From: an uncultured Clostridia bacterium
GTDB lineage: Bacteria > Bacillota > Clostridia > TANB77 > CAG-508
Length of the DNA: 64,000 bases
Direction of reading: 5' to 3'
Assembly: GCA_963558185.1 (NCBI GenBank)
Contig: CAUWFE010000005.1
Location: 768 to 64,767 of the forward strand
Every line of letters starts with the position of its first letter. The stretch's first letter is position 1. The notes below the pieces were generated by a model. That model saw only the letters and a list, made by a program, of their open reading frames with translations, had not been told where the DNA came from and did not search any database. Below, piece after piece: positions 4,409-58,428 of this stretch. Both the position numbers and the translations under genes were made by a program.

Positions 4409-6538
4409 TTATATTTTTAAGGTAGTATTTGTAGTTATTTCTTTTCCATTTACTATTACTATATGCTTTAGCACGTTATTGTTTAATTGTAAAAATTTAA
4501 AATTGTCAAAGGTATTATTATTAAAAATAATTTTTTGTTGGTAACTATCTTGTAAGTTGTTTAAATATATTAATCTCTGAATATTTGATTGATTTTCTAC
4601 TCTAATAGTATTATTAGTTATACTCACATTAATATTATTTATTTTGGTTAAAGCAAATTGAACAAAATTTTTACTATTTTCTCCCCATAAATTACTATCA
4701 GATAATGTAACTATATTATTCGAAATATCTATATCTTCTGACATTACATATTCTCCATAGTTAAATAACGTGTTTGGAGATTTCCCATTTAAATTAATTG
4801 TATTTCCTGTTATTTTTGTGGAGCCTCCTGTTAACTTATAAACTAAATCACTATTTATAGTAATTTGATTATTAATAATTTGTGGTGCGCCATACTCTAT
4901 TGTATTATCATTATCTGTAAAACTTATAAGATAATTACTAGTTATATCAATTTTATTATTCTCTAATGTTATTTTTCCAAAAATAAAACTACTATTAGTT
5001 GTTTTGGCAATATTAATGCTATTAGAGCTAATTATCACATTTTTTGTTTTTGAATAATTCTGTATAAATGCACTATTATAATTTAAGTTTTCTTGTTCAT
5101 ATTCTAATTTATTATTTTGTATAAATATATTATTTGAACCATCGTCTCCTGCAATATAGGCGAAAATTCCAGCATATTTAGAAGATATTTCGTTATTTAT
5201 AAATTTGATATTAGAAACTTTCCCACCTGTTTGTCCAAATGTAAAATTCATGTAACTAGGCTTCTCAACTTTTCCATCATCTAATTTGAAAGTATTACTG
5301 TCAATAATTATATTATCAATATTTCCATCCCAAATTCCAATTGATTCATCATGGCAACTTTTCTCTATATAATTGTTTTTTATTATAGCATTTTTTGAAA
5401 TATAGCTGTCATTAGTAGTTGCATCACTTAAGAAGATATTTCCACCGACATTACTATTAGTTAAATTGATAAATTCACAATTTTGTATTGTTATATTTTC
5501 CCATTCTGTTCTAAACCATAAATTAGTTAATTTTCTTAATGAATTTTCATTTATTTCATAAATATTAAAAGTACAATCACTTATATTAATATTGTTACAA
5601 TAGTCCCCTACTACCTGACAACTTGATTCATCATCTTTTATCTTAACATTTCCATTTTCAAATTTTAAATTAGTAACCATAATATTTTGAATATGATTTG
5701 TTTCTGTTCCTGCTATATAGACTTGAGCATATGATGAATATTCAATTTGTTCTGATAAAAATAGTGTAGCATCATTTCCAATAATAGCTAAATTGCTTGT
5801 ATTTATTTTTATTATTGTATCATATTTATATCTTTCACTTTCAAACGTAACATTTCCATACCCAGCATTTAGAGCTAATTGTATAGCTCCTGCATCATTA
5901 TGATTTCCATCTCCATAAGCGCCAAATTGATTTACAGTAACTGTATTATTTATTGCATGTAATTCTGCATATAATCCATTATCTAATTGAATACATTTTC
6001 CTTCATCTACTGCTAAACTCGTACTATTTACTATATCATAATAAGCACTTCCACCATACTGTTTATCCCAGTAGCTTTCTGTTTGAACCAACTGTCCATC
6101 TGTTAATTCAGTATCTGTCTTCATACTTGCTACATTAGGATATGTTTTATCTACTTCTAATTTAAATTCTTCTATACTTATTACTTCATTTTCATTTGTT
6201 ACTATTTGCCATTTATCTAATATAAAAGAATAAGTATTGTCTTCATTTTGTGCTACTCCTACTTGTAAGTTCTTTCTTAAGAAGTTTGTAAAATCTGAAC
6301 TTTGATTTGTTGTTTTTTCTATTCCATATTGTGTCAATAATAAAGATACTTTTTCTTTAGCTTCTGCTTTACTATATTCTTCTCCTGCTTTTGTTGCTTG
6401 TCTAAATATTCCATTTTCTCCTATTGTTAAGTTAATTGTTACTCCTACTAATATTAAAAGCACTATTATTGTTATAATAAGTGCTATTAAGGTAATACCT
6501 TTTTTACCATATTTTAGTCCTTCTTTTAATTTCTTCAT
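4409..6538 (-). CDS. Pilin-like N-terminal module fused to a right-handed beta-helix (pectate-lyase/tailspike-like) domain
   Basis: N-terminus MKKLKEGLKYGKKG|ITLIALIITIIVLLIL..GENGIF (prepilin-type). Followed by VNQFGAYGDGNHNDAGAIQLALNAG (Pectate_lyase_3-like) and long N/I-rich beta-helix repeats. The ORF is open to 6613; the start at 6538 was chosen for a short pilin-like leader. Confidence 0.75.
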   Translation of the reverse strand: MKKLKEGLKYGKKGITLIALIITIIVLLILVGVTINLTIGENGIFRQATKAGEEYSKAEAKEKVSLLLTQYGIEKTTNQSSDFTNFLRKNLQVGVAQNEDNTYSFILDKWQIVTNENEVISIEEFKLEVDKTYPNVASMKTDTELTDGQLVQTESYWDKQYGGSAYYDIVNSTSLAVDEGKCIQLDNGLYAELHAINNTVTVNQFGAYGDGNHNDAGAIQLALNAGYGNVTFESERYKYDTIIKINTSNLAIIGNDATLFLSEQIEYSSYAQVYIAGTETNHIQNIMVTNLKFENGNVKIKDDESSCQVVGDYCNNINISDCTFNIYEINENSLRKLTNLWFRTEWENITIQNCEFINLTNSNVGGNIFLSDATTNDSYISKNAIIKNNYIEKSCHDESIGIWDGNIDNIIIDSNTFKLDDGKVEKPSYMNFTFGQTGGKVSNIKFINNEISSKYAGIFAYIAGDDGSNNIFIQNNKLEYEQENLNYNSAFIQNYSKTKNVIISSNSINIAKTTNSSFIFGKITLENNKIDITSNYLISFTDNDNTIEYGAPQIINNQITINSDLVYKLTGGSTKITGNTINLNGKSPNTLFNYGEYVMSEDIDISNNIVTLSDSNLWGENSKNFVQFALTKINNINVSITNNTIRVENQSNIQRLIYLNNLQDSYQQKIIFNNNTFDNFKFLQLNNNVLKHIVIVNGKEITTNTTLKI

Positions 6539-6677: not shown

Positions 6678-6878
6678 ATGAACAAGTTAAAAATACCAGA
6701 AAATCATAGTGGGATTAGCAAAACTCTTAGACTGCCAGAAAATATAGTAAATGATATACAAAATCTTGCTAATCTTAAAAACTTATCTTTTAATAAAGTT
6801 GTAATTTCTTTATTAGAATTTAGCCTAAATAATTTAGATGAAAAAGATAAAGAAGAATTAGAAAAATTGCAAAAATAA
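6678..6878 (+). CDS. Small ribbon-helix-helix (CopG-like) protein
   Basis: 66 aa. KTLRLPENIVNDIQNLANLKNLSFNKVVISLLEFSL fits a beta-strand/helix/helix pattern. Strong SD aaggagg. Confidence 0.5.
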   Translation: MNKLKIPENHSGISKTLRLPENIVNDIQNLANLKNLSFNKVVISLLEFSLNNLDEKDKEELEKLQK

Positions 6879-6911
6879 TTTTTTATCTAGGTAGACTTGA
6901 AGTCTATCTTT

Positions 6912-7181
6912 TTAAATATCAAGACAAATTATTGTATCATTATCTAAATATAATGTAATACCCTTCTCATTAATTTCTACTTCATATATTTGATTTAAAT
7001 TTATCTTTAAATAATTTTGGCTTTCTTCATCTGTGATGTTCAAAATTTCATATTCAATAAAATATTTTAGTTTATGTATTGAATATTTATTTTTCAAAAA
7101 TCCATCATGAGTTATAACTACATTTTTCCCTATAAACTCATTTAATTTTTCTTCTAAACTATTATTTGTATTTTGTATCAT
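6912..7181 (-). CDS. Hypothetical protein
   Basis: 89-aa ORF with SD gaggt. No motif recognised. Confidence 0.4.
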   Translation of the reverse strand: MIQNTNNSLEEKLNEFIGKNVVITHDGFLKNKYSIHKLKYFIEYEILNITDEESQNYLKINLNQIYEVEINEKGITLYLDNDTIICLDI

Positions 7182-7374
7182 TATTATTACCTCATTTCAC
7201 CAATTTATATTATTCTGTTCATTTATTGAATAATTATACTACTTTTATTAGTGGTTATAACATATTTAATAAATTTATATAATTTGGCAAATTGAAATGA
7301 TTTAATTATAGCGTAACAAAAATTTCAATGCAACGAATCAGTTCGATGAATTGAAAATATTTTATGATTTTTCA

Positions 7375-7393
7375 ATGTACCAAAGTGGTACAT
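7375..7393. promoter_or_regulatory. 19-bp palindrome, candidate operator upstream of XRE gene
   Basis: atgtacca-aag-tggtacat perfect inverted repeat ~60 nt upstream of 7451. Confidence 0.35.
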
Positions 7394-7450
7394 GATTGCA
7401 TTTATATATAATTTTATTGATTTTTAGCGATTTTATGGAGGATTAAAAAA

Positions 7451-7687
7451 ATGAAATTATCAGATGCAATTAGAAAAAGAATTAAATTTTATTTGAAAGA
7501 AAAAAATATGAATGTATGGAAGTTATGTAAGATGTCTGGAATTCCTTGTTCTACTATTTCAACTTTCATGAGTAGTAAAACAGAGTTAATAAAATTAGAT
7601 ACCTTATTACATATTTGTGAAGGATTTGAAATTACCTTAGGAGAATTTTTTACAGATTCAACATTTGACATGGCAGAACAAGATTAA
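7451..7687 (+). CDS. XRE-family HTH transcriptional regulator
   Basis: 78 aa. Collinear paralog of the IME regulator at 33083..33319 (shared ...TLLHICEGFEITLGEFFTD vs TLLHLCEGLGIELNEFFTD). SD ggagg. Confidence 0.8.
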   Translation: MKLSDAIRKRIKFYLKEKNMNVWKLCKMSGIPCSTISTFMSSKTELIKLDTLLHICEGFEITLGEFFTDSTFDMAEQD

Positions 7688-7771
7688 TAATAAAAATACG
7701 GTTCTATAATAAATGTTGGTGTGGTTAAATAATGTACTGAACCCAAAAAAACGGACATTTTTGATTAGGTA

Positions 7772-7875
7772 TTAGGCAACTTCTAAGGAGTGAATTCTGT
7801 ATTGAACAGGATTCATTTCTTTTAGTTCGCTCTTTATCCTTTTATTGTTATAATAATCTATATATTCTATTATGA
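7772..7875 (-). mobile_element. IS3-family transposase (OrfB) C-terminal fragment
   Basis: The reverse strand translates to IEYIDYYNNKRIKSELKEMNPVQYRIHSLEVA*, the typical IS3/IS150 integrase C-terminus. No upstream remainder is present. Confidence 0.7.
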
Positions 7876-7953
7876 GTATATAGATTAATTTGTGTAAAGT
7901 TAAAAAATAAACCTTCTTATAATAAAATAAAAATGTCATAAGGAGATTTAAAA

Positions 7954-8113
7954 TATGGCAAAGAAAGAAAAAATAAGTGAAGAAAGAAGAAAATTAATAC
8001 AAGAATTTATTAAAAGTAATGAATTAAAAACAGCATGAGATATTCAAGAAGCAATAAAAGATTTGTTTAAAGATACAATCCAAGGAATGTTAAATGCAGA
8101 ATTAACAGAATAT
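7954..8113 (+). mobile_element. IS256/Mutator-family transposase N-terminal fragment with in-frame stop
   Basis: MAKKEKISEERRKLIQEFIKSNELKTA*DIQEAIKDLFKDTIQGMLNAELTEY matches the conserved N-terminal region of IS256-family transposases. It has a TGA at 8035..8037 and is truncated after ~53 codons. Confidence 0.7.
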
Positions 8114-8176
8114 CATTTTATATCTTTTTTCATTTGTCCCCCTGCCTATTATATCAAAAAAAGAAGAAATTTTATA

Positions 8177-8362
8177 TTAAAACTTCTTCTTTTTCTTAAG
8201 TTGTTGACATTGATATGTAAGATTAGTTTTATCTAACTTTCTAATACTACCATTTATAAAAGTGGGACTAACTTTAGCAAATTCACATATAAATTCAAGC
8301 CTTTGTTTTAGACATTCCTCAAATTGTAATTCTTCTTTAATTATCTTCATTATTAACACCAT
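8177..8362 (-). CDS. Hypothetical small protein (doubtful)
   Basis: 61-aa ORF inside the degraded region. No motif, weak SD. Confidence 0.25.
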   Translation of the reverse strand: MVLIMKIIKEELQFEECLKQRLEFICEFAKVSPTFINGSIRKLDKTNLTYQCQQLKKKKKF

Positions 8363-8475
8363 CCTTTCGTTTAGATGATTTTAATATTGTTTTTAGGAAA
8401 CACAAAAATCAACCAGATTTTTTCTGATTGATTTTTGTATCAATTCTGTTCTATTAGTTCGAACAGATACATCAT

Positions 8476-8561
8476 TGGTGGGCAGAGATGGATTCGAACC
8501 ATCGTACTCGTATGAGAACAGATTTACAGTCTGCCGCCTTTAGCCACTCGGCCACCTACCC
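8476..8561 (-). tRNA. tRNA-Tyr (GTA)
   Basis: The reverse complement gggtaggtggccgagtgg...cagactGTAaatctg...ggttcgaatcc...cccacca folds as a cloverleaf with a long variable arm and encoded CCA. Confidence 0.9.
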
Positions 8562-8576
8562 GTATCATAAATAAAA

Positions 8577-8653
8577 TGGTGCTCCCTCAAGGATTCGAAC
8601 CTTGGACCCACCGGTTATGAGCCGGTTGCTCTGACCAACTGAGCTAAGGGAGC
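8577..8653 (-). tRNA. tRNA with CAT anticodon (Met by code; loop CTCATAA suggests lysidine-type tRNA-Ile2)
   Basis: Reverse complement gctcccttagctcagttggtcagagc...ggCTCATAAcc...ggttcgaatcc..gggagcacca. Lacks the initiator GGG/CCC anticodon stem. The loop differs from the elongator-Met-like tRNA at 30436. Confidence 0.85.
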
Positions 8654-8682
8654 ATATATATTATTTTCCTAACGCGATTTTT

Positions 8683-8711
8683 ATTATACTTGATTTTTTA
8701 TATAATGTCAA
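8683..8711 (-). promoter_or_regulatory. Sigma-A-type promoter for the tRNA pair
   Basis: Minus strand reads TTGACA-17 nt-TATAAT, ~30 nt upstream of the tRNA 5' end. Confidence 0.7.
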
Positions 8712-8836
8712 TACTTTTATAAAATTTTTATAGGAAAATGAACAAAAAATTTTATATTTAAGTGAAATTAAATTGTAACCATTGAACAAAGCAAGAATAT
8801 AATATAAAAAATGTGATTAATGATAAGGAGGAAAAA

Positions 8837-9835: not shown

Positions 9836-9925
9836 AATGAATAAATGGTAATAGGCACTACTCAATATAAATAATATTCTCCTATTACCATTTTTAATAT
9901 TTTCTAAATATAGATATAAATAAAT

Positions 9926-10064
9926 GCTACTAGATAATGCTTTCTGTAGATTAATGCAAGGAATGCCTTGAAATATGAGATTCTTAGGTTTATTACAAAA
10001 TTTAAGAAATTCTAATTTATTTTATGGCACCATTCCACTAAAAGCGAACTCTTTCCATAAAATT
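9926..10064 (+). mobile_element. MITE-like element, copy A (left half only)
   Basis: Starts gctactagataatg...aatgcaaggaatgccttgaaatat and is collinear with copy B up to ctttccataaaatt, then joins unrelated sequence. Confidence 0.75.
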
Positions 10065-10078
10065 TTAAGAATGTTTTT

Positions 10079-10105: not shown

Positions 10106-10190
10106 AAAATAAACAAATTTTTGTTGAAAAATATGAATAAAATTGATACAATTGGGCATAATAAAAATTTTATAAAGGATTGATGAAATA

Positions 10191-45788: not shown

Positions 45789-46946
45789 ATGTCTAGTTGT
45801 TTAGGATTATATATAGAAAAAAACTTAATTAAATATGCAAAAGTTTCAAAAGAAAAAGACATGATAAAAGTAGATGCTTTTGGAGTAAAATTTTATGAAA
45901 ACATAGGGGAAGCTATTTCGCAAATTATTTCTGAAACTTACAGTTATCATACTCCTATTAGTATAAATTTATCAGAAGAAATATATAGTTATTTTTATTT
46001 TTTTAATTTATTAAGTAAAAATGATTTAAAAAAAGCAATAGAAACTGAATTTTCATCTTTTTGCAGTGAAAAAGGTTATAACCGTAATGCACTAGAAAGC
46101 AGATATGCTTTGACTCCAGAAATAGATAATAAAGAAAAAATAAGAGCTATATATATATATGTTAACAAAACAGAAATAAATAGAAAAATACAAGATTTTG
46201 GTGAAAACCCAGTTTCAATGATTACTACATTACCAATGGCAATAAGCAATGTTGCAGAAATAAAAGAAAAAGAAAATATATTAATAGTAAACATAGAAAA
46301 TAACACATCAGTTACAAAAATAATAAATGGAAGTATATATGAAGTACAAAAAATGGAAGAAGGTATGGATCAAATACTTTATAACATAAATACAAAAGAA
46401 AATTCATACTCAAAAGCATATGAAATTTGTAAAAATACTACAATATATACAGCAGATGGAAGAGAACTATTACAACAAGAAATTGATAGTAACACAGATT
46501 ACTTAGAAGATATAATGCCAACATTATATACAATTGCTAATAATGTAAAGACATATATAGAATCATCTACAGATAGAATTGACAAAGTGTATATAACAGG
46601 TAGTGGAAGTATAATTAACAATATAGATTTATATTTTCAAGAATTTTTACCAGATAGCAAATGTGAAATATTAAAGCCATATTTTATTAAAAATAGTGTA
46701 AAGATAAATATTAAAGATTATATTGAGGTCAATTCAGCTATTGCGTTAGCTATGCAGCAATTAGGATATGGAATAAAGGAATTAAATTTTAAAAGAAAAA
46801 CAATTGCAAATTCTTTGCAAGACTTAGCTAAACGTGATATTAAACCAGGAAATAAAAAAACAGGAAATAAAAAGAATAATGACTTTGGAGGAAAAGTTAA
46901 GAATTTCTTTAATTTCAAAGAAGGCTTAAAAGGGCGGACTAGATAA
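45789..46946 (+). CDS. pilM: Type IV pilus assembly protein PilM (actin-like ATPase fold)
   Basis: 385 aa. LGLYIEKNLIKYAKV start, ...ITGSGS... phosphate-2-like motif. First gene of the pilus cluster. The C-terminus probably continues into pilN (see findings). Confidence 0.7.
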   Translation: MSSCLGLYIEKNLIKYAKVSKEKDMIKVDAFGVKFYENIGEAISQIISETYSYHTPISINLSEEIYSYFYFFNLLSKNDLKKAIETEFSSFCSEKGYNRNALESRYALTPEIDNKEKIRAIYIYVNKTEINRKIQDFGENPVSMITTLPMAISNVAEIKEKENILIVNIENNTSVTKIINGSIYEVQKMEEGMDQILYNINTKENSYSKAYEICKNTTIYTADGRELLQQEIDSNTDYLEDIMPTLYTIANNVKTYIESSTDRIDKVYITGSGSIINNIDLYFQEFLPDSKCEILKPYFIKNSVKINIKDYIEVNSAIALAMQQLGYGIKELNFKRKTIANSLQDLAKRDIKPGNKKTGNKKNNDFGGKVKNFFNFKEGLKGRTR

Positions 46947-47472
46947 TTTTGAAAAATGGTTATTAAGAATAGCAATTAGCTTTTTAGAAATAACAATTAT
47001 TTATTGTGTTATTTCAGGTTTTCTAAATACACAAATACAAAATAAAATTGATGAAGTAAATAAAAAACAACAACAAGAACAAACACAAATCTCAAAGGCA
47101 GATAGTGACTTACAAAAGATAAAATCAAAAACAGCAAGTTATACATCAATTATAGAAAATTTAGAAAAATTTGATGCAGCTGAACATGAAAGTCAAATAC
47201 AGAAAGATAAAATACCAGAATTATTAAGTAAAGTTATGTTCGCAATTCCACAAGGTGTTACAATAACATCTATTGAAAATACAACACAAGCAACAACTAA
47301 TAATGAAACAAAAAATCATATTGTAATAAATGCAGAATCTTCAAGATATGATTTTCTAGGATATTTTATTGGAAATATTAAAAATGATCAAATTTTAATA
47401 GATGTAAAAACAACAGATGGAAAAAATGTAAATGGAACAGTTAAAATTGTAATTGAAGGAGATATACCATGA
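46930..47472 (+). CDS. pilN: PilN-like protein, open frame without canonical start codon
   Basis: The frame is open from 46930. It shows a TM helix (LLRIAISFLEITIIYCVISGF), a coiled coil, then IPELLSKVMFAIPQGVTITSIEN (PilN consensus). No ATG/GTG/TTG in frame before 47236. The ORF track shows only 47236..47472. Confidence 0.6.
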   Translation, partial: KGGLDNFEKWLLRIAISFLEITIIYCVISGFLNTQIQNKIDEVNKKQQQEQTQISKADSDLQKIKSKTASYTSIIENLEKFDAAEHESQIQKDKIPELLSKVMFAIPQGVTITSIENTTQATTNNETKNHIVINAESSRYDFLGYFIGNIKNDQILIDVKTTDGKNVNGTVKIVIEGDIP

Positions 47473-48188
47473 AAAAAATATTATTAATGATTCTAATTAT
47501 CTTACTTGCAACTTTAACATATTTTGCAATTGCTGACGGATTAGAAATAGGAACTTTTCAGATACTAAGTGTATCCCAAATTCAAGAAAAGAATGAATCT
47601 TTAGATAAAGGTATTGAAATTTTAAATAATACCATAACTAAAGCTTTTCCACAAAAAATATCAGAAGTAAAAACATCAACTGAAGCTTTGCAAACAGCTA
47701 AAAAGGCATATTTAGATAAAACAACATCTTACACAGATGAGCAAATATTAGCAGCAACACAAGAAGAAAAATATGATATAGAATTTTTATGGACAAGAGT
47801 AGGACAACATGCAACAGAAAAAGGTGTAAACATAAAAATGGATATAGGAAAAGGAGATACAGAAGAAGTAAGAGATTTGAACTTTACAGTGCAAGGTAGT
47901 TATATAGGAATTACTGATTTTATATATGCAGTTGAAGAAGATGAAGACTTAAATTTTAGAGTGAAAAATTTTAAAATGTTACCAGACAAAGGAGAAATTT
48001 TAAAAGCCACTTTTATAGTTAAGAATATTAAAATTTTAGGAAATACATCATCAGCAACGGTAAACACAACAAGTAATGAAAATAATAGTAATAATACTGT
48101 AAACTCAAATACAACAAAACAAAATGAAGCAAATAATATAAGTAGTAATACTACAACTAATAATGTAAGTAATACTACAAGTAATTAA
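47469..48188 (+). CDS. pilO: PilO-like pilus assembly protein with N/T/S-rich tail
   Basis: 239 aa. N-terminal TM, coiled coil, ferredoxin-like core. ATGA overlap with pilN. A 50-aa Asn/Thr/Ser tail. Confidence 0.6.
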   Translation: MKKILLMILIILLATLTYFAIADGLEIGTFQILSVSQIQEKNESLDKGIEILNNTITKAFPQKISEVKTSTEALQTAKKAYLDKTTSYTDEQILAATQEEKYDIEFLWTRVGQHATEKGVNIKMDIGKGDTEEVRDLNFTVQGSYIGITDFIYAVEEDEDLNFRVKNFKMLPDKGEILKATFIVKNIKILGNTSSATVNTTSNENNSNNTVNSNTTKQNEANNISSNTTTNNVSNTTSN

Positions 48189-48207
48189 TATAAAGGAGTT
48201 ATTCTTT

Positions 48208-48603
48208 ATGGGAAAAACAATTTTTAAGGAAGTTATTATAACAATATTATTATTGATTGCGATTGTATTAATTATGATGGTTATATTTTATGATTACAAT
48301 CCAATTAATAAAATTGTTCCTGAAGTAGAACCATACAAAACTTCAGAAGAAATAAAAAATGAATTAGATGCACAAGATGGAAATTTTCAACTAGAAACAA
48401 TAGAAAAAACATATTCACTTGATAGTGCGGATTTAAGTAAATATAAAAATAGCGATTTGTATGTTCAAGGAAAGGCAAATCCATTTGCAAGTAGCAATAC
48501 TGTTACAAATAATCAAGTAAATAATAGTACTATTACAAATAAAGTTACAAATACTAATTCAAATTCAACAGGAACATTTTTCAACAACACAGGAACAAAA
48601 TAA
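48208..48603 (+). CDS. Membrane-anchored pilus-cluster protein with N/T-rich tail
   Basis: 131 aa. Single TM (VIITILLLIAIVLIMMVIF) and a C-terminal NNQVNNSTITNKVTNTNSNSTG tail. SD aaggag. Confidence 0.55.
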   Translation: MGKTIFKEVIITILLLIAIVLIMMVIFYDYNPINKIVPEVEPYKTSEEIKNELDAQDGNFQLETIEKTYSLDSADLSKYKNSDLYVQGKANPFASSNTVTNNQVNNSTITNKVTNTNSNSTGTFFNNTGTK

Positions 48604-48664: not shown

Positions 48665-48880
48665 ATGTTAAAAGGACAAAAAGGTGTTACATTAATCGCT
48701 TTAGTAGTTACAATTGTAATCTTAATCATTTTAGCAGCAGTAAGTATGACAATGGTATTAGGCGAAAATGGAATATTTGATCAAGCAAAAAAAGGTGCAA
48801 ATTCACAAGCTGCTGCAGAAACTAACACAGCTGCTGGATTCAATACTTTATATGATCAAATGGAAGATTTACAAAAATAA
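48665..48880 (+). CDS. Minimal type IV pilin-like protein (candidate major pilin)
   Basis: 71 aa. Leader MLKGQKG|VTLIALVVTIVILIIL. Strongest SD in the cluster (aaggagg) and its own attenuator/terminator downstream. Confidence 0.75.
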   Translation: MLKGQKGVTLIALVVTIVILIILAAVSMTMVLGENGIFDQAKKGANSQAAAETNTAAGFNTLYDQMEDLQK

Positions 48881-48972: not shown

Positions 48973-49776
48973 ATGGAAACAATAATTTTTTATATTATGA
49001 TTTTTTGCATAGGCACAATGTTTGGAAGTTTTTTTACTTTGGCAGTATATAGATTACCATTACATGAAGATATTACGCATGAGCGTTCTTTCTGCCCAAT
49101 ATGTAATCATAAGCTATCTTTTTGGGATATGATACCAATTTTAAGCTACATATTTTTAGGTGGAAAATGTAGATATTGCAAAAGTAAAATACGACCACGT
49201 TATTTAATTTTAGAAATATGTTCAGGAATAGTATTTTTATTAATGGCTATTTCTATTTGTGCTACACTACCAATAACAATAGATAAATTAGTTTATTTAG
49301 TATTAGCATTATTATACATTGCTGGATTATTCATAATTGCAGGTATAGATAAAGAAAAAGTGCAAATTCATATGGGAGTATTATTTTATGAAATGATAGT
49401 AGTTGCCATGTATATGATGTATCTATACATATTATCGAATGTTAATGTTTATAGATATGTTATATATTTATTCTTTTTATGTGTTTTACTAATATTAGAA
49501 ACATGTTATTTAAGAAAAAATTTAAAAAGTAATTATACACTACAAATATTAATGATTTCTTTATTAATGATTGCTTTTGCAGGTAGATGGCAATTTATAT
49601 TAACAGTAATATTAACTTTATTATCAATAGCAATAGATAAAGCAATAGAAAAAATATGCGGTAGAGGACAAAATAGTACAAAAGAAAAATCACATAAAAT
49701 ACCAGTTGCATATTTTATGTGTGTATGTCATATTGTGGTTTTAATTATAATGAATTTTATAATTTGTAGGTGGTAG
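48973..49776 (+). CDS. pilD: Prepilin peptidase-like protein (A24 family)
   Basis: 267 aa. N-terminal FGSFFTLAVYRLP and two Cys pairs CPICNHKL..CRYCKSKI. Polytopic membrane protein. The canonical GxGD(V/I)K motif was not seen. Confidence 0.75.
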   Translation: METIIFYIMIFCIGTMFGSFFTLAVYRLPLHEDITHERSFCPICNHKLSFWDMIPILSYIFLGGKCRYCKSKIRPRYLILEICSGIVFLLMAISICATLPITIDKLVYLVLALLYIAGLFIIAGIDKEKVQIHMGVLFYEMIVVAMYMMYLYILSNVNVYRYVIYLFFLCVLLILETCYLRKNLKSNYTLQILMISLLMIAFAGRWQFILTVILTLLSIAIDKAIEKICGRGQNSTKEKSHKIPVAYFMCVCHIVVLIIMNFIICRW

Positions 49777-49779
49777 AAA

Positions 49780-50190
49780 ATGAAAAAAATTAAAAGGAAT
49801 GAAGGTTTTTCTCTGGCAGATTTAGCAATTGCTATTATAGTAATTTCTATATTTACAGGAGTAATAGCAAGTTTATATATACAAATATCATATAATACAG
49901 CAATAACTAGAATGCAGAGTGTAGCATATAACTATGCTATACAAGCATTAGAATTAGCAGATAAATTAGATTATAGCAAAGTTGATAATTCATTAAATAA
50001 TTCACTTCATCAAACGTTAAACTTAAAAGAAGGCTTTGATATAAATATGGATGTAGAAAAATATGCAAGCTCTAATAGTGGGAAAAAAGATATAATAAAA
50101 ACAGTTAATGTTACAGTAAGTTATAATTTAAAAAATGAAAATTTTACAATTAATTTGGCTAAATTAAAGATAAGAGAACCAGAAAAATAG
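49780..50190 (+). CDS. Minor pilin / pseudopilin
   Basis: 136 aa. Leader MKKIKRNEG|FSLADLAIAIIVISIF. Confidence 0.7.
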   Translation: MKKIKRNEGFSLADLAIAIIVISIFTGVIASLYIQISYNTAITRMQSVAYNYAIQALELADKLDYSKVDNSLNNSLHQTLNLKEGFDINMDVEKYASSNSGKKDIIKTVNVTVSYNLKNENFTINLAKLKIREPEK

Positions 50191-50209
50191 TAAATGGAAA
50201 GGGAAAAAG

Positions 50210-50650
50210 ATGCTAAAAAATAATCGAGGAGTTACTTTATTATCATTAATTATATATATTTTAGTGTTAACAATTGTATTATCAGTACTTACTACAATAG
50301 TAACTAATTTTGACAGAAATAAAGAGTTTCTTAAAGACCAAGGAAAATATATTGGTGAACTGGATAAATTTGCATTATACTTTATTCGTGATGTAAAAAG
50401 CAACTCTTATGCTAATATAACTGCAAATCAAGTAGTTTTTAGTAATGGAGCCGTGTACAGATATGAAAAAAATGAAAAAAGTATTTATAAAGATAAAGTA
50501 AAAATTGCACATAATATAGAATATTGCAATTTTGTAAAAAAAGAAATTAAATCTGGAAATATTACTAAAATTATAATAAATGTTGATATTATTCCAACTG
50601 GTTATGATATAAATAGAAGAACAACAGATTATGTGTTAAAATATTGGTAA
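50210..50650 (+). CDS. Minor pilin / pseudopilin
   Basis: 146 aa. Leader MLKNNRG|VTLLSLIIYILVL. Confidence 0.65.
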   Translation: MLKNNRGVTLLSLIIYILVLTIVLSVLTTIVTNFDRNKEFLKDQGKYIGELDKFALYFIRDVKSNSYANITANQVVFSNGAVYRYEKNEKSIYKDKVKIAHNIEYCNFVKKEIKSGNITKIIINVDIIPTGYDINRRTTDYVLKYW

Positions 50651-50694
50651 TTGTTGTAATATTACTATTTACGATAGTAAAGAAAGGAGTTTTT

Positions 50695-52320
50695 ATGGCT
50701 AAACAAACACAACCAATAGGTATAGAATTGGCAAAAAGAAATTTGGTAACAGAAGACGATATAAATCGTGCATTGGAGTACCAAAAAAAATATCCTAATA
50801 AAAAGTTAGGAGATATATTAAATATATTACAAATATGTGATTCTAAAAAACTTATTACAGCTATAGGTGAAATTTTAGATGAAAAAACAATTTTATTAGA
50901 AACTGAAGATATAAAAATAAATGTTTCAGAGTATATTTCACCAGATATAGTAAGAGAAAATAAAGCAATACCTTTTGAAGTATCAAATGGAAAAGTTAAA
51001 GTATGTTTTGCTGATACATCAAATAAACGTGCAGTAGATACAATAAGACTATTGTTATTAAATAAAGGTCTTGTTATGGAAAAATACATTACATTTGAAA
51101 CAAATATAGATAGGGTATTGAATTCATTAGGTGGTTCATCACAAACAAATATAGATAATAGTAATGATATTACAGGACTAGTAGATAGTATTATAAAAAC
51201 AGCAATAGAAAAAAGAGCAAGTGATATTCATATAGAGCCATTAGAGGACCAAGTACGAATACGTTTCAGAATAGATGGAATATTAGTTACAGAAGCTATG
51301 CTAAGTAATGAAAAACAAAGTCAAATTATAGGTAGGTTAAAAGCAATTTCTAATATGCATCAAGAAAAACAAATATCACAGGATGGTAGAATTTTGCTAT
51401 ATCCAGACTATAATATCCGTGTATCTTCACAGAAAAATGTATATGGAGAAAAATTTGTTTTAAGACTTTTAAAGAAAAATGCAGGTATTAAACAAATATT
51501 TGATTTAGGATTTCCAAAAGATGAAAAACTACTAAAAGATTGTTTTAATAAAAGAAATAGTATAGCAATTATAGCAGCACCAACAGGAGAAGGTAAAACT
51601 ACGACTTTATACAGTGTAATTGACTATTTAAATAAGCCAGAAATAAATATTACAACAATAGAAGACCCAGTGGAAATTCGTATTCCAGGATTAAATCAAA
51701 TAGAAATAGATTCTAAAACAAGTTTTGCAGATTCATTAAGAACAGTATTAAGACAAGATCCAGATATAGTATTAGTAGGAGAAATTAGAGATAATGAAAC
51801 CGCAGAAATAGCAATGCAATCTGGACAAACAGGACACTTTGTATTATCAACAATACACACAATAGATAGTGTAGAAGTTATTACAAGATTAAGAAAAATG
51901 GGAATTTCAAATTATGATATATCTAGCACATTAGCAACATCAATTTCTCAAAGATTAGTAAGGAAAGTTTGCAAACGCTGTGCAATAGAAAGAGAATTTA
52001 ATGATTTTGAAAAGGAAAAAATGCAACAAATAGCACAATATTATGGAAAGACGATTGATTTTACAAATAAAAAAACATATGATATAGTCGGATGTAAAGA
52101 ATGTAATTATACTGGATTTTATGATAGAATAGCAGTATTTGAAATATTATTAATAACAGAAAAAATCCGCGAAATGATTGTAAATAATGAGTCTAGTATT
52201 GAAATACGTAAACAAGCTTTAAAAGAAGGCTTTAATCCTATAGTAATGGATGGAATAAATAAAGTATTAGAGGGATATACAACACTAGATGAATTAAATC
52301 AAAAATTAGTTATTTATTAA
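50695..52320 (+). CDS. pilB: Type IV pilus assembly ATPase PilB (GspE family)
   Basis: Start MAKQTQ with SD aaaggag; the ORF track starts at 50644. Walker A APTGEGKTT, Asp box, Walker B DPDIVLVGEIRD, His box, tetracysteine CKRC...CKEC. Confidence 0.92.
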   Translation: MAKQTQPIGIELAKRNLVTEDDINRALEYQKKYPNKKLGDILNILQICDSKKLITAIGEILDEKTILLETEDIKINVSEYISPDIVRENKAIPFEVSNGKVKVCFADTSNKRAVDTIRLLLLNKGLVMEKYITFETNIDRVLNSLGGSSQTNIDNSNDITGLVDSIIKTAIEKRASDIHIEPLEDQVRIRFRIDGILVTEAMLSNEKQSQIIGRLKAISNMHQEKQISQDGRILLYPDYNIRVSSQKNVYGEKFVLRLLKKNAGIKQIFDLGFPKDEKLLKDCFNKRNSIAIIAAPTGEGKTTTLYSVIDYLNKPEINITTIEDPVEIRIPGLNQIEIDSKTSFADSLRTVLRQDPDIVLVGEIRDNETAEIAMQSGQTGHFVLSTIHTIDSVEVITRLRKMGISNYDISSTLATSISQRLVRKVCKRCAIEREFNDFEKEKMQQIAQYYGKTIDFTNKKTYDIVGCKECNYTGFYDRIAVFEILLITEKIREMIVNNESSIEIRKQALKEGFNPIVMDGINKVLEGYTTLDELNQKLVIY

Positions 52321-52335
52321 GAAAGGAGTATACAC

Positions 52336-53472
52336 GTGATAAATATAGATGAAATTTTGAAATTAGCAAAACAAAAAGATGCATCAGATGTACACTTAAT
52401 TTCTGGAATAAAGCCCATGTTAAGAATTGCAAGAGATCTAATTGAAATAGAAGAAATGGATATCTTAGAAGAAGAAGACATGTATCAAGCATATGACTAT
52501 TTTGTAAGAGGAAATTTGGATGAAGATGAGGTATTTAAAGAAACAAGAAAATTAGATGCTTCTTTTGAATTTGAAGATATTAGATTAAGAGTAAATATTT
52601 CTTATTCAGATAATGTGCCAATTTTTACATTAAGATTAGTAAAAAAAGATTTACCAAAATATGAAGATTTAGGAGTACCAGATATAGTTAGAAGAATGAC
52701 TTATCAACCTCAAGGGTTAATTTTAGTTACAGGAAAAACAAACTCAGGAAAAACCACAACATTAAATGCATTAATTAATGAAATAAATGAAAAACAAAAT
52801 AAAAAGATATTAACACTAGAAAACCCAATAGAATATAAACATAAATGCAAAAAATCTGTAATAGTACAAAAAGAAATAGGAAGAGGGCGTGATAGTTTAT
52901 GCTTCAGTGATGGTGTAAAAAACTCATTAAGAGAAGACTGCGACATAGTAGTAGTAGGGGAAATTAGAGATAGAGAAACAATGGAAGCAGCTATAGAAAC
53001 AGCAGAATCAGGACATTTAGTAATAGGAACACTTCATACAAAGTCATGTGCTGAAACAATAGATAGAATGATAAACTTTTATGATATTTCAGATCAACAG
53101 AGTGTTAAATATTTAATTGCATCATTACTAAAACTAGTAATATCACAAAGGTTATTAAAAGGAAGAAATGGTAAATTAGTATTAGTACCAGAAGTTATGG
53201 TAGTAGATAATATAATAGCTGGAATTATAAGAAAACAAAAAATAAGTGTATCTGAAATTGAAGATGCAATACAAAGTAATTTAGAAAAAGGTAGTATAGG
53301 ATTAATAAATTCTTTAGCAGAATTATTTGTAAATGACCAAATTACTTTAGAACAAGCAAAATCACAAATAGAAGAAAAGAATTTAGAAATATTAAACAGA
53401 ACTATTATGCAACTAAAGATAAAAAAGGAAAATGGAAATAAGAATATTATGAATGGATATATGCACAATTAG
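52336..53472 (+). CDS. pilT: Twitching-motility retraction ATPase PilT
   Basis: 378 aa. ASDVHL, GKTNSGKTTT Walker A, DIVVVGEIRD, GHLVIGTLHT. GTG start with SD aaaggag. Confidence 0.9.
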   Translation: MINIDEILKLAKQKDASDVHLISGIKPMLRIARDLIEIEEMDILEEEDMYQAYDYFVRGNLDEDEVFKETRKLDASFEFEDIRLRVNISYSDNVPIFTLRLVKKDLPKYEDLGVPDIVRRMTYQPQGLILVTGKTNSGKTTTLNALINEINEKQNKKILTLENPIEYKHKCKKSVIVQKEIGRGRDSLCFSDGVKNSLREDCDIVVVGEIRDRETMEAAIETAESGHLVIGTLHTKSCAETIDRMINFYDISDQQSVKYLIASLLKLVISQRLLKGRNGKLVLVPEVMVVDNIIAGIIRKQKISVSEIEDAIQSNLEKGSIGLINSLAELFVNDQITLEQAKSQIEEKNLEILNRTIMQLKIKKENGNKNIMNGYMHN

Positions 53473-53483
53473 GAGGTAAAAAG

Positions 53484-54836
53484 ATGCCAGAATATGTATA
53501 TAGAGCAGTAACCGATAAAGGGCAAATTGTTCGTAATCGTGTAGAAGAAGCTAGTAAACAAGCTTTAATTAAAAAATTGAAAAAGAATGATTTAATGCCA
53601 ATTGACGTTAAACAAGCATCATATGCTGCTAAAAAACAAAAAAAAGCAAGAAGAAATAGCATAGATATAGATGAAATTATGAAAACAGCTAGTACATCTA
53701 ATTTATTAAATAAAAATATGAAAAAAGAAATTAGCTTTTCAGAAAAAATGAATGCAACTCTTTCAGGGACAGAAAAAATTACAAGTAGAGATTTAGTTAT
53801 ATTTACACAAAATTTTTATTTACTAAAAAAAGCAAATTTCAATAATATTCATGCTCTAAATACTATTATAGATAGTACAGAAAATTTGTCTTTAAAAGGG
53901 GTTTTACAAGATATTTTAGCAGGTGTCGAAGCTGGTGAATATATGTATACTACAATGGAATACTATTCTAACATTTTTCCATATATATATGTTAATATGA
54001 TTAAAGTTGGAGAATTATCAGGTTCACTAACAACTTCTTTAGAGCAAGCTGTTAAATACTTAGATGACAATAATGCTATTCTTAAAAAAGTAAAAAGAGC
54101 AATTATTCCAAATATTTTACAATTTATCGCTATTTTTGCATTACTAATTGCAGGAACATTTTTGGCAGTTCCAGCCATTCAAGGTTTATACGAGCAAGTA
54201 GGAAGTACAGATGAATTACCAGGACCTACAATATGGTTCTTCAATTTAGCTACAGCAGTATTCCAAGTATGGTATATACCAGTAGGATTAATAGCAATAA
54301 TTGCAGCACTTATTATTTATTATATAAATACACCAAAAGGAAGATATAACTTTGATTATTTTAAATATAGAATGCCAATTTTTGGCTCATTGATATTCTC
54401 GATGGATTTTGAAAGATTTATAAAAGCTATGTCTTTAAACTTAGATAATGGAATGAGAATTCAAGATTCATTGGAAGTTAGTAAAAATGTTGTAAAAAAT
54501 TACGTGTTTTTATCTATGGTAGAAACTTCTATAAATAACATACTAATTGGTGGATCATGGATAGAACCTTTTGAAAAATCAGGATTAGCATCATCAATGA
54601 TGACAGAAATGTTAAAAATAGGTATGCAAACAGACCTTTCTGAAATGATGAAGAAATTAGTAGAATATATGAGAATGGATATTGATAATATTCTTACTAA
54701 AATAATGAAAGTATTACCAGAAATTTCATATTCTATAGTAGGAGTGGTATTAATATTCTTTGTAATAGTAGTACTTGTTCCATGTTTACAAGTATACATG
54801 GGAGGTTTCTTATTATCAGCAGGAGGAGTAGTATAG
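53484..54836 (+). CDS. pilC: Type IV pilus platform protein PilC (GspF family)
   Basis: 450 aa. Two GspF-type repeats and three TM segments. Confidence 0.88.
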   Translation: MPEYVYRAVTDKGQIVRNRVEEASKQALIKKLKKNDLMPIDVKQASYAAKKQKKARRNSIDIDEIMKTASTSNLLNKNMKKEISFSEKMNATLSGTEKITSRDLVIFTQNFYLLKKANFNNIHALNTIIDSTENLSLKGVLQDILAGVEAGEYMYTTMEYYSNIFPYIYVNMIKVGELSGSLTTSLEQAVKYLDDNNAILKKVKRAIIPNILQFIAIFALLIAGTFLAVPAIQGLYEQVGSTDELPGPTIWFFNLATAVFQVWYIPVGLIAIIAALIIYYINTPKGRYNFDYFKYRMPIFGSLIFSMDFERFIKAMSLNLDNGMRIQDSLEVSKNVVKNYVFLSMVETSINNILIGGSWIEPFEKSGLASSMMTEMLKIGMQTDLSEMMKKLVEYMRMDIDNILTKIMKVLPEISYSIVGVVLIFFVIVVLVPCLQVYMGGFLLSAGGVV

Positions 54837-57203: not shown

Positions 57204-58428
57204 ATGAAAAAATTAGTAAAAGAACAAAAAGGTGTAACCTTAATAGCATTAGTAGTAACAATAGTAATATTAATCATTTTAGTGGCAGTAAGTATGACAA
57301 TGGTGTTAGAAAATAACGGAATATTTGAGCAAGCAAAAAAAGGAGCAAATGCAATGGCTGACGCAGAGACAAATGAGCAAAAAGGATTTAACAGTATGTC
57401 AGAGGAAATAGATAAAATATTAGTTGGAAATGCAAGTTCAGAAAATCCAAGTGAGCCAGAGGAGAAACCAAAAAAAATAGAAGATGCAAAGAATTCAGGA
57501 GAAGAATTTACAAATAATAGAAATATTTTGGAAGATTCAAAAGGAAATAGAGTAGTGATTCCTGGAGGATTTAAAATATCTTCTGATTCAGGAAATACAG
57601 TTGGACAAGGGATAGTAATTGAAGATGTAAGTGCATCAGGAGATGGAGATGTAAAAGGAAGCCAATTTGTATGGGTACCAGTTGGAAAATTTATTACTGA
57701 TGATGGTACAGAAAAAAATATCAAACTAGGTAGATACAGTTTTGACATGAAATCAGTACAATTAATACAAGATGCAAAAGACTATAAACAAAAAGTATAT
57801 ATTCAACGGTAATATATTAGAAGAAACCAAATTTAGAGAAGGATGTGAATATACAAAAGAAACTGCTACAGCTAAAGATTTAAGAGAATTTATTGAATCA
57901 GCAGAGTATAATGGAGGATATTACATTGCAAGATATGAATCCACATATGCTTTAGATACAGGTACAATTGAAACTAGTAAAGCAGCATCAAAAATTTCTT
58001 CATATTTTAATTATGGACCTAACGAAAATGGAAAATTATGGAACAATATAACTCAAATAAATGCATCAAAAGTATGTATAAATACATATTTTGATGCAGA
58101 TAGTGTAGAAAGTGATTTAATTAATAGTTATGCGTGGGATACAGCAAGACTATTTATCCAAGAGAGTGGAAATACAGGATATGGAAACGAAAGAATTAAT
58201 AGTGAAATAGAAAATACAGGTACTAGAAATGATGAAGTATGTAAAATAAATGATATGGGGGGAAATCTGCAAGAATATTTAACAGAAACAACAAACAATA
58301 AAAATGGAATATTGATGGGGGCACATGGATATAACTTAAATTTTTTAAATGAATTTAATATTGATAAGAAAGATGAAAAGACAGGATTTAGAATGCTTTT
58401 ATATTTAAGAGTTTCATATAAAAAATAA
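57204..58428 (+). pseudogene. Pilin-N-terminal-module protein fused to an FGE-sulfatase/C-type-lectin-like domain, frameshifted
   Basis: ORFs 57204..57812 and 57772..58428 overlap in different frames around an A-rich stretch. N-terminus MKKLVKEQKG|VTLIALVVTIVILIIL. Downstream SQFVWVPVGKF, GGYYIARYE, NSYAWDTA. Confidence 0.65.

What the first reader, a model, noticed from the sequence alone, without database searches (positions are those of the whole stretch)
4409..6538. A conserved pilin-type N-terminal module is reused as an anchor for large, unrelated extracellular domains
Seen:
- Three genes share a ~45-aa N-terminus with consensus K-G-(V/I)-T-L-I-A-L-(V/I)2-T-I-(V/I)2-L-(I/L)-I-L...(L/I)-G-E-N-G-I-F-x-Q-A-x-K.
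- The first is this 700-aa protein, whose body is a right-handed beta-helix (pectate-lyase/tailspike-like, NQFGAYGDGNHNDAGAIQLALNAG).
- The second is the 71-aa minimal pilin at 48665.
- The third is the FGE/lectin-like protein at 57204.
- The latter two also share high nucleotide identity over the module.
- The module lacks the canonical Phe+1 and Glu+5 of type IV pilins (position +5 is Ala).

Established: pilin-like class III leaders target proteins to the prepilin peptidase and pilus machinery. Archaea use such leaders to display sugar-binding proteins.

Inference: this organism may use its T4P/pseudopilus machinery to display or secrete enzymes (a polysaccharide depolymerase-like beta-helix and a lectin-like domain). 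They could sit as pilus-tip or membrane-tethered cargo. That arrangement is little described in Firmicutes.
Basis: partly seen in the sequence, partly recalled or inferred. Interest (0 to 1): 0.65.

Follow-up and report, generated by a model that had tools for sequence, protein, structure and literature searches.

The report
Glu5-less pilin head on surface proteins
An uncultured gut Clostridia lineage puts the same unusual type IV pilin N-terminal helix (Ile/Val at +1, Ala instead of Glu at +5) on its pilus subunit and on many large surface proteins, including this tailspike-like beta-helix protein. This is a new variant of the already described "modular pilin" idea, and its processing enzyme is unclear.

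Summary
Three genes share a pilin-type N-terminal module: A (4409-6538, minus strand, 709 aa), B (48665-48880, 71 aa) and C (57204-58428).

- **Bodies.** A's body is a tailspike-like right-handed beta-helix. B is the pilin gene of a type IV pilus operon. C is one gene split by a real frameshift, and its domain is only weakly FGE-like.
- **Origin of the module.** It is a type IV pilin alpha-1 helix with Gly-1, Ile/Val+1 and Ala+5. In 66 of 70 related species loci it heads the pilin next to the PilD homologue.
- **Spread.** It heads at least 31,627 protein clusters carrying LRR, lipase, GH5, deacetylase, beta-helix and other domains.
- **Source.** The lineage is uncultured gut Clostridia, probably TANB77.

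Best reading: A is a surface-displayed, polysaccharide-directed protein carried by a pilin-derived class III-type head, that is, a non-canonical modular pilin.

Caveats:
- The operon's PilD homologue has no recognisable peptidase domain and no second catalytic Asp.
- pilMN is frameshifted in this species.
- No pilin globular fold was detected in A.
- Modular pilins are already described in Firmicutes.

Cleavage and pilus dependence remain untested. I rate it a new variant of a known kind, of moderate interest.

The parts
4409..6538 (-). Gene A: 709-aa protein with a pilin-type head and a tailspike-like beta-helix body (the longest ORF runs to 6613; orthologues start at MKKLKE...)
   Evidence: ORF. 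All of about 120 best homologues carry the same head. AF2 model pLDDT 85.6. Foldseek hits to tailspike depolymerases and lyases. dN/dS 0.27 against the orthologue in L007.
6383..6538 (-). A residues 1-52: 13-residue Lys-rich leader ending in Gly14, hydrophobic helix ITLIALIITIIVLLILVGVTI, then the GENGIF motif
   Evidence: The AF2 models place a helix at residues 14-38 or 17-39. Pfam N_methyl scores 13.0 bits, below threshold.
5939..6382 (-). A residues 53-200: continuation of the alpha-1 helix (to about residue 76), a short helix, a small four-stranded sheet and a tailspike-type N-terminal cap domain
   Evidence: AF2. hhalign to the operon pilins covers A residues 8-79. Foldseek finds only tailspike N-domains and no pilin. 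Residues 109-293 are about 30% identical to SPO1-like phage tail fibre gp17.2.
4409..5938 (-). A residues 201-709: right-handed parallel beta-helix (pectate-lyase-3 / tailspike depolymerase type), plus the stop codon
   Evidence: PF12708 is recorded on homologues P0012 and P0061.
48665..48880 (+). Gene B: 71-aa pilin (64 aa mature if cleaved after Gly7), in the major-pilin slot of the type IV pilus operon
   Evidence: (N_methyl 21.2 bits, equal to the threshold). The same slot and the same head occur in 66 of 70 related loci.
57204..58428 (+). Gene C: pilin-headed protein with a weakly FGE-sulfatase-like domain, split by a frameshift near 57785-57797 into ORFs 57204-57812 and 57772-58428
   Evidence: intact homologues, e.g. 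P0220 at 431 aa, align across the junction; SUMF2, E=0.018; the same split in L090 and L091.
45789..47472 (+). pilMN fusion gene, broken by a frameshift at about 46927-46936 (ORFs 45789-46946 and 47236-47472)
   Evidence: tblastn against the 545-aa L002 orthologue shows two frames. The site is identical in five other assemblies. The gene is intact in 75 of 80 related species loci.
47469..48603 (+). Two membrane-anchored operon genes (239 aa PilO-position protein; 131 aa unknown)
   Evidence: ORFs. Syntenic in L002. No Pfam hit.
48973..49776 (+). PilD homologue: A24_N_bact domain plus a polytopic C-terminal half with no recognisable Peptidase_A24 domain
49780..50650 (+). Two minor pilins: 136 aa (G|FSLAD, acidic +5) and 146 aa (G|VTLLS)
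   Evidence: weak ComGF/ComGE-type hits; Asp at +5 in 64 of 69 loci.
50644..54836 (+). PilB-type assembly ATPase, PilT-type ATPase and PilC-type platform protein
   Evidence: Pfam T2SSE + MshEN, T2SSE, and T2SSF respectively.

Best explanation
Gene A encodes a cell-surface protein of an uncultured, low-GC gut Clostridia bacterium, probably of the order TANB77.

**Head.** Its first ~65 mature residues are a type IV pilin alpha-1 helix: a short basic leader ending in Gly, about 21 hydrophobic residues, a GxNG kink, then an amphipathic helix. This lineage has diverged from the canonical G|FTLIE to G|(I/V)TL(I/V)A. The same head forms the major pilin of the lineage's type IV pilus operon.

**Spread (shown).** The head has been fused to tens of thousands of different extracellular bodies: adhesin-like repeats, lipases, glycosidases, deacetylases and beta-helices.

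**Mechanism (inferred).** The head inserts the protein into the membrane with the body outside. It is probably cut after the conserved Gly. It then either holds the body at the cell surface or lets the pilus machinery lift it into, or onto the tip of, a filament, as described for modular pilins.

**Body (fold and homology shown; activity inferred).** The body is a tailspike-like beta-helix related to phage depolymerases. It most likely binds or cuts a polysaccharide: host mucin, dietary glycan, or another bacterium's capsule.

**Status of each step.** Homology of the head to pilins, its linkage to the operon, its reuse and the beta-helix fold are shown. Cleavage, methylation, filament incorporation and enzymatic activity are inferred.
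For: **The head is pilin-derived**
- N_methyl is at threshold for B and just below it for C; 21 of 70 family members hit N_methyl.
- A profile of the operon pilins matches the solved Geobacter PilA-N over 62 residues, E=0.0023.
- A's N-terminus aligns to the operon pilins over 72 columns at 99.5% probability.

**Linkage to the pilus operon**
- B lies between the pilMN/pilO-like genes and the PilD homologue, followed by two minor pilins and pilB, pilT and pilC.
- The same arrangement and head occur in 66 of 70 related species loci.
- Large head-bearing genes sit just downstream of the operon in the window and in L018, L031, L038, L058 and L074; a homologue of C lies in the same position in L070.

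**Conservation typical of a recognised signal, not a plain anchor**
- Gly-1 in 143 of 144, Ile+1 in 141 of 144 and Ala+5 in 142 of 144 top hits.
- B against C: 9 synonymous and 1 non-synonymous differences.

**Reuse**
- 31,627 cluster representatives at E<=1e-3, with diverse Pfam bodies.
- Three head-bearing genes in a row in L005.

**Body**
- AF2 and Foldseek; homology to phage gp17.2.
- A is under purifying selection, dN/dS 0.27.
Against: - Ala at +5 breaks the defining acidic residue of bacterial class III signals (PMC4471445). It also breaks the PilFind cleavage motif (PMC3244431).
- TIGR02532 does not hit.
- The PilD homologue has no Peptidase_A24 match and no conserved second acidic catalytic residue. 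The window's protein has Arg and Gln where many relatives have Glu or Asp.
- pilMN is frameshifted in every assembly of this species that I examined, yet A stays intact.
- Foldseek found no pilin fold in A's N-terminal 197 residues.
- A lies 42 kb from the operon, among mobile-element scraps.
Confidence: 0.6

Rival explanations
1. The head is an uncleaved N-terminal signal-anchor. It descends from a pilin but now serves only to tether extracellular domains to the membrane, independently of the pilus machinery and of any prepilin peptidase.
For: - The PilD homologue lacks the peptidase domain and the second catalytic Asp.
- Glu5, which pairs with the new N-terminus in assembled pili, is absent.
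- pilMN is broken in this species while A is intact and constrained.
- No pilin globular fold was found in A.
- The very large number of carriers fits a general anchoring device better than pilus subunits.
Against: - Near-invariant Gly-1 and Ile+1/Thr+2/Leu+3 have no obvious reason in a plain anchor.
- The same head is the only candidate major pilin of a conserved operon with assembly and retraction ATPases.
- One minor pilin keeps Phe+1/Asp+5, which implies that class III processing still operates.
Confidence: 0.22
2. The head is a long Gram-positive Sec-type signal peptide. Signal peptidase I cuts it after the hydrophobic helix, at the conserved small residue before (E/D)NG, and the bodies are released as soluble secreted proteins.
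For: - It has a basic n-region, a hydrophobic stretch and a conserved x-x-G|(E/D)NG junction.
- The junction has residues acceptable at -3 and -1. This is my own reading of the alignment and was not tested.
- Many bodies are typical secreted enzymes.
Against: - For the 71-aa operon pilin this cut would leave a peptide of about 35 residues with no assembly helix, so the operon would have no major pilin.
- Homology to true pilins continues across the junction, through the whole alpha-1 helix.
- Some members lack the Gly at that junction; C has ENNG.
Confidence: 0.1
3. Gene A is a leftover of a prophage tailspike or tail-fibre gene, not a cellular surface protein.
For: - Residues 109-293 resemble SPO1-like phage tail fibre gp17.2.
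- The best structural matches are phage tailspikes.
- The neighbours include an IS fragment, an HTH regulator, a Bro-N protein and a GH25 lysin.
Against: - No phage structural genes are adjacent.
- The pilin-type head was not found in 50,697 phage records.
- Orthologues sit in different chromosomal contexts, always with the same head.
- The gene is under purifying selection.
Confidence: 0.05

Closest known systems
Modular type IV pilins (Streptococcus sanguinis PilB/PilC; Raynaud et al. 2021, PMC8179133)
   Same: An N-terminal pilin element is fused to a bulky functional module (vWA, lectin, peptidase and others) that is presented outside the cell. They are widespread in monoderms and diderms and have many architectures.
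   Different: - Canonical modular pilins have Glu5 and a complete pilin fold (alpha-1 plus beta-meander), and a canonical PilD processes them.
- Here +5 is Ala and +1 is Ile/Val.
- Only the alpha-1 helix is demonstrably pilin-like.
- The operon peptidase homologue lacks the peptidase domain.
- The family is far larger: at least 31,627 clusters, against about 1,200 proteins catalogued through InterPro.
Archaeal class III signal peptide substrates (Sulfolobus bindosome sugar-binding proteins; reviewed in PMC4471445)
   Same: A pilin-type signal carries non-pilin extracellular proteins. Glu5 is often absent. Surface localisation depends on a type IV filament-like system, and no visible filament is required.
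   Different: That system is archaeal, with a bona fide two-Asp peptidase (PibD). No homology of the machinery beyond the shared superfamily was tested here.
Geobacter-type short pilins (PilA-N, 'geopilin domain 1', PDB 9egp)
   Same: These are very short pilins of about 60-65 mature residues that consist essentially of the alpha-1 helix. This was the best solved-structure sequence match to the operon pilins.
   Different: Geobacter PilA-N has Phe1 and Glu5 and comes from a diderm. In relatives of the window's organism the pilin in this slot is either short (62-71 aa) or long (131-183 aa).
Phage tailspike depolymerases and pectate-lyase-3 proteins (e.g. PDB 8oq0, 8iq9, 6w4q; SPO1 gp17.2)
   Same: Right-handed parallel beta-helix with an N-terminal cap domain. 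About 30% sequence identity over residues 109-293.
   Different: There is no virion-attachment domain; a pilin-type membrane head stands in its place. Trimerisation and catalytic residues were not examined.
TANB77 Tad-like pilus cluster (PMC11680825)
   Same: The same uncultured gut lineage, according to that paper's placement of CAG-245. It also concerns pilin-like proteins of interest for host interaction.
   Different: That cluster is Tad-type (CpaB, TadZ, TadA, TadB/C and proteins 932-938). The operon here is PilB/PilT/PilC/PilMN-type. In the passages I searched by keyword, the paper mentions neither this head nor any prepilin peptidase.

Membership tests
Type IV pilin / class III signal peptide | Short hydrophilic leader (6-26 aa) ending in Gly | tested here: met
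   A has a 13-residue leader plus Gly14; B has MLKGQK-G; C has MKKLVKEQK-G. Gly-1 is present in 143 of 144 family members. Definition from PMC4471445.
Type IV pilin / class III signal peptide | About 21 predominantly hydrophobic residues directly after the Gly | tested here: met
   ITLIALIITIIVLLILVGVTI in A, with equivalents in B and C. Predicted helix at residues 14-38 or 17-39.
Type IV pilin / class III signal peptide | Acidic residue (Glu, rarely Asp) at +5; PilFind motif [GAS]-x4-[DE] | tested here: not met
   Ala at +5 in A, B and C. Ala in 142 of 144 family members and in 66 of 70 operon pilins. Motif from PMC3244431.
Type IV pilin / class III signal peptide | Match to the curated models (Pfam N_methyl PF07963; NCBIfam TIGR02532) | tested here: inconclusive
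   PF07963 scores: B 21.2 bits (equal to the cut-off), C 17.4, A 13.0. TIGR02532 is not among the NCBIfam hits.
Type IV pilin / class III signal peptide | Encoded with a type IV filament machinery | tested here: met
   B lies inside the operon and C 2.4 kb downstream; A is 42 kb away. The arrangement is conserved in related species.
Type IV pilin / class III signal peptide | Cleavage after Gly by a prepilin peptidase (with or without N-methylation) | not testable with these tools
   This needs protein chemistry. The only peptidase homologue in the window lacks the peptidase domain.
Modular pilin (sensu Raynaud 2021) | Complete pilin module (alpha-1 plus beta-meander) joined by a linker to a functional module | tested here: inconclusive
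   The secondary structure of A (long helix to residue 76, short helix, four strands at 95-124) has a pilin-like order. Foldseek returned no pilin in its top 50. hhalign homology to the operon pilins stops at residue 79.
Prepilin peptidase (MEROPS A24, PilD/ComC) | N-terminal A24_N_bact (IPR010627) domain | tested here: met
   PF06750 at E=1.3e-28; present in all 120 homologues.
Prepilin peptidase (MEROPS A24, PilD/ComC) | Peptidase_A24 domain (PF01478 / IPR000045) with two catalytic Asp, the second in GxGD | tested here: not met
   0 of 30 members hit PF01478 at E<=10. Asp126 is conserved in 118 of 120 homologues (one has Glu) and Glu128 in all 120, but no second conserved Asp exists. Positions 191 and 205 are acidic in 81 and 94 of 120 relatives but are Gln and Arg in the window. 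The two-Asp requirement is from PMC3244431 and PMC4471445.
Pectate-lyase-3 / tailspike-type beta-helix | Right-handed parallel beta-helix fold | tested here: met
   AF2 pLDDT above 90 over most of residues 210-709. Foldseek probability 1.00 to tailspike depolymerases and polysaccharide lyases.
Pectate-lyase-3 / tailspike-type beta-helix | Pfam PF12708 match and catalytic acidic residues | tested here: inconclusive
   The window protein has no PF12708 hit at E<=0.1. Homologues P0012 and P0061 carry the annotation. Catalytic residues were not examined.
FGE-sulfatase / SUMF fold (gene C) | Match to PF03781 or to solved SUMF proteins | tested here: inconclusive
The family profile hits SUMF2 (1y4j) at E=0.018, over the C-terminal YDxxGNxxEW...RG...FR motifs only.

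The most novel reading that the evidence does not exclude
TANB77-type gut Clostridia may run a distinct bacterial branch of type IV filament systems.
- A Glu5-less pilin helix would serve as the general export and display signal for dozens of surface proteins per small genome.
- One Asp5-bearing minor pilin would act as primer.
- The PilD homologue has lost the canonical two-Asp protease site. It would then be a methyltransferase, a scaffold or a protease of new mechanism, or processing would be handed to another enzyme.

This would be a bacterial counterpart of the archaeal bindosome.
Probability: 0.25. Interest if true: 0.75.

Novelty: new variant of a known kind. Interest (0 to 1): 0.55.

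Why it matters
- **Annotation gap.** The signature defines a very large set of surface proteins in an abundant, uncultured human-gut lineage. Most are unannotated: nearly all of the 120 listed homologues of A have no precomputed Pfam domain.
- **Host interaction.** The lineage is under study because its abundance correlates with response to cancer immunotherapy (PMC11680825). These proteins are what such cells show to mucus, diet and the host.
- **Pilus biology.** A bacterial major pilin without Glu5, paired with a PilD homologue without a recognisable protease site, questions two features treated as near-universal.
- **Practical use.** The signature G|(I/V)TL(I/V)AL...GxNG would allow a cheap surfaceome prediction for these genomes.

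Tried and rejected
- **hhalign of the PilD-like family against E. coli K-12 GspO**. Uninformative: a single divergent sequence, probability 0.3%.
- **First genome-contig scan.** It failed and was repeated.
- **Literature search for the literal peptide strings.** Nothing found.
- **tblastn of a consensus head against plasmids and phages.** No match. BLAST's low-complexity filter may have masked the query, so this is weak evidence of absence.
- **Cluster look-up for names of head-bearing proteins.** It gave none.
- **Promoter and terminator scans.** Not informative in 26% GC DNA.
- **Search for a canonical GxGDxK peptidase in the ~1.45 Mb of related DNA held.** None found, but that DNA covers only a small part of any genome.
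- **Sequencing error as the cause of the two frameshifts.** Rejected: both are present in L090 and L091. L090 is base-identical to the window over 20.2 kb and may be the same assembly; L091 differs by 11 SNPs. The pilMN frameshift site is also identical in L092-L094.
- **Selection test on the PilN part after the frameshift.** Impossible: the strains are 100% identical there.
Full report
**1. What is in the window**

The window is 25.8% GC. It carries housekeeping genes (primase, sigma-70, Mfd, FeoB, dipicolinate synthase A), so it is chromosomal DNA of a low-GC Firmicute.

A six-frame scan finds the described N-terminal module in three ORFs:
- A: 4409-6538 on the minus strand, 709 aa.
- B: 48665-48880, 71 aa.
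- C: starting at 57204.

B and C are about 85% identical in DNA over about 160 nt. In the 26 codons after the Gly they differ by nine synonymous changes and one non-synonymous change. The peptide is therefore conserved by selection, not by a recent copy. A is 50% identical to B over the module. In all three, +1 is Ile or Val and +5 is Ala.

**2. The pilus operon**

B lies in a type IV pilus operon. The gene order is:
- a pilMN fusion gene;
- two membrane proteins;
- B;
- a PilD homologue;
- a minor pilin with G|FSLAD;
- a minor pilin with G|VTLLS;
- PilB (T2SSE + MshEN), PilT (T2SSE) and PilC (T2SSF).

A scan of one genome per GTDB species with the PilD homologue found 291 species. All 80 listed loci come from uncultured gut Clostridia MAGs (human, rabbit, mouse, ruminant), including Clostridium sp. 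CAG:273. The best match is 69% identical.

In 66 of the 70 loci where I could place the genes, the gene just upstream of the PilD homologue is a pilin with Ile/Val+1 and Ala+5. It is 62-71 aa or 131-183 aa long, and some loci have up to seven tandem copies. The first minor pilin downstream has Asp at +5 in 64 of 69 loci and Phe at +1 in 41. The module is therefore the head of this lineage's major pilin.

A profile of the longer operon pilins matches the solved Geobacter PilA-N over 62 residues (E=0.0023). This ties the module to true pilin alpha-1 helices. A's orthologue P0092 is named from Clostridium sp. CAG:245, and PMC11680825 places the genus CAG-245 in the order TANB77. TANB77 is therefore my inference for the source.

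**3. How far the module is reused**

A profile of twelve modules, searched against 1.84 billion cluster representatives, gave 31,627 hits at E<=1e-3 and 18,732 at E<=1e-10.
- The top 144 are 56-727 aa long. They have Gly-1 in 143, Ile+1 in 141 and Ala+5 in 142.
- Seventy of them, each 170 aa or longer, carry BspA-type LRR, GDSL lipase, DUF285, GLUG, RCC1, GH5 cellulase, polysaccharide deacetylase, beta-helix, fn3 and Big_2 domains. Most have no Pfam domain beyond a weak N_methyl match.
- In a CAG:245-like contig, three head-bearing genes lie in a row next to a GH5/DUF285 gene.
- Large head-bearing genes lie just downstream of the pilus operon in the window and in L018, L031, L038, L058 and L074. 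A homologue of C lies in the same position in L070.

**4. Gene A**

All of about 120 best homologues keep the same head.

The AF2 model (pLDDT 85.6) shows:
- a membrane helix;
- a low-confidence GENG break;
- a helix to residue 76 and a short helix;
- a small sheet;
- a long right-handed beta-helix.

Foldseek's best matches are phage tailspike depolymerases, polysaccharide lyases (RbmB, K1 lyase) and the adhesin PfbA. Residues 109-293 are about 30% identical to the tail fibre gp17.2 of SPO1-like Bacillus phages, which explains the public name 'gp17.2'.

A is not in a prophage. Its neighbours are a DUF3592 protein, a MazG-like protein, small regulators, an IS fragment, a GH25-ChW lysin and a Bro-N protein.

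Against its orthologue in L007, dN/dS is 0.27. dS falls from 1.1 in the head to 0.2 in the beta-helix, which hints at a mosaic history.

A separate model of residues 1-197 (pLDDT 79) has a pilin-like order of elements. Foldseek nevertheless returned only tailspike N-domains and no pilin. hhalign to the operon pilins covers residues 8-79 only. The demonstrably pilin-like part is therefore the complete alpha-1 helix, not a whole pilin.

**5. Gene C**

The two overlapping ORFs are one gene. Homologues such as P0220 (431 aa) align across the junction. The frameshift lies in an A-rich run near 57785-57797. It is present in two other assemblies, one of them identical to the window and one differing by 11 SNPs over 20 kb.

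The domain has no Pfam match. The family profile gives a weak hit to SUMF2, over the GNxxEW...RG...FR motifs (E=0.018). The 'FGE-like' label is plausible but not established.

**6. Two complications for the pilus-display idea**

*The PilD homologue.*
- It has the N-terminal A24_N domain. The review cited here (PMC4471445) considers this domain almost certainly responsible for pilin N-methylation.
- Its membrane half matches Peptidase_A24 in 0 of 30 members, even at E<=10. All 120 best homologues have PF06750 only.
- Asp126 is near-invariant (118 of 120 homologues; one has Glu) and Glu128 is invariant. No second Asp is conserved.
- The positions that could correspond to the GxGD Asp are acidic in 81 and 94 of 120 relatives, but are Gln191 and Arg205 in the window and its closest relatives.

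*The pilMN frameshift.*
- It lies at 46927-46936.
- It is present in every assembly of this species that I fetched. These come from different studies, although the pilMN region is 100% identical in four of them.
- pilMN is intact in 75 of 80 other species.
- The downstream PilN frame is still open for about 180 codons, which is notable in 26% GC DNA. No start codon precedes it. I cannot tell a recent inactivation from translational frameshifting.
- In another species (L002) pilC is the gene that is split.

**7. Interpretation**

The near-invariant Gly-1 and the first residues after it, together with the retention of one Phe1/Asp5 minor pilin, argue that class III-type recognition still operates. 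The missing Glu5 and the missing protease signature argue that it does not operate in the textbook way.

According to PMC4471445:
- Glu5 is dispensable for cleavage;
- it is needed for homopolymer assembly in the systems tested;
- it is often absent in archaea.

I therefore favour (0.6) a pilin-derived head that targets and holds extracellular bodies at the surface, possibly through the pilus machine. The rivals are an uncleaved anchor (0.22), a Sec-type cleaved signal (0.1) and a prophage remnant (0.05).

**8. Comparison with what is known**

Grafting functional modules onto pilins is established in Firmicutes and beyond (PMC8179133). The general idea is therefore not new.

What I did not find described is:
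- this Glu5-less signature;
- its scale;
- its pairing with a PilD homologue that lacks the protease domain.

The one TANB77 pilus paper concerns a different, Tad-like cluster. I rate the finding as a new variant of a known kind, with interest 0.55.

Noticed in passing
window 46927-46936 (pilMN, 45789-47472): A single-base frameshift splits the pilMN fusion gene. It is identical in five other assemblies of this species and absent in 75 of 80 related species. The downstream frame stays open for about 180 codons with no start codon, so it is either a recent pseudogene or a candidate for translational frameshifting.
   Followed up: partly
window 48973-49776 and 120 homologues (P0296-P0415): A large clade of PilD homologues keeps the A24_N domain and a conserved GIDKE motif. 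It has no Peptidase_A24 match and no conserved second catalytic Asp.
   Followed up: partly
L002 14866-16216: In a related species the pilC platform gene is the one split into two ORFs (176 and 292 aa). Different lineages seem to break different pilus genes.
   Followed up: no
L079 2926-6734; L023 6528-7499: Some relatives carry three to seven tandem paralogues of the operon pilin (131-183 aa). Their heads are identical and their C-terminal parts divergent, which suggests pilin variation.
   Followed up: no
window 4409-6538 versus L007 10001-12109: Synonymous divergence between the A orthologues drops from about 1.1 in the head to about 0.2 in the beta-helix. This suggests recombination or exchange of the body independently of the head.
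   Followed up: no
window 6678-11078: Next to A lies a patch of mobile-element debris: a CopG-like and an HTH_26 regulator, an IS3-type transposase C-terminal fragment (7772-7939), a GH25 muramidase with three ChW repeats (8813-9835) and a Bro-N protein (10191-11078).
   Followed up: partly
window 56109-56969: A stand-alone HipA_C-type kinase gene lies between the pilus operon/ROK gene and gene C. No HipB-like partner was seen.
   Followed up: no
window 30853-32127: A tyrosine integrase gene on the minus strand. The region from about 30 to 40 kb was not annotated further and may be an integrated element.
   Followed up: no
P0152 (706 aa): One database protein carries the head twice (residues ~8-50 and ~388-435) with similar bodies after each. 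It is probably two adjacent genes fused by a gene-calling or assembly error, or a read-through.
   Followed up: no
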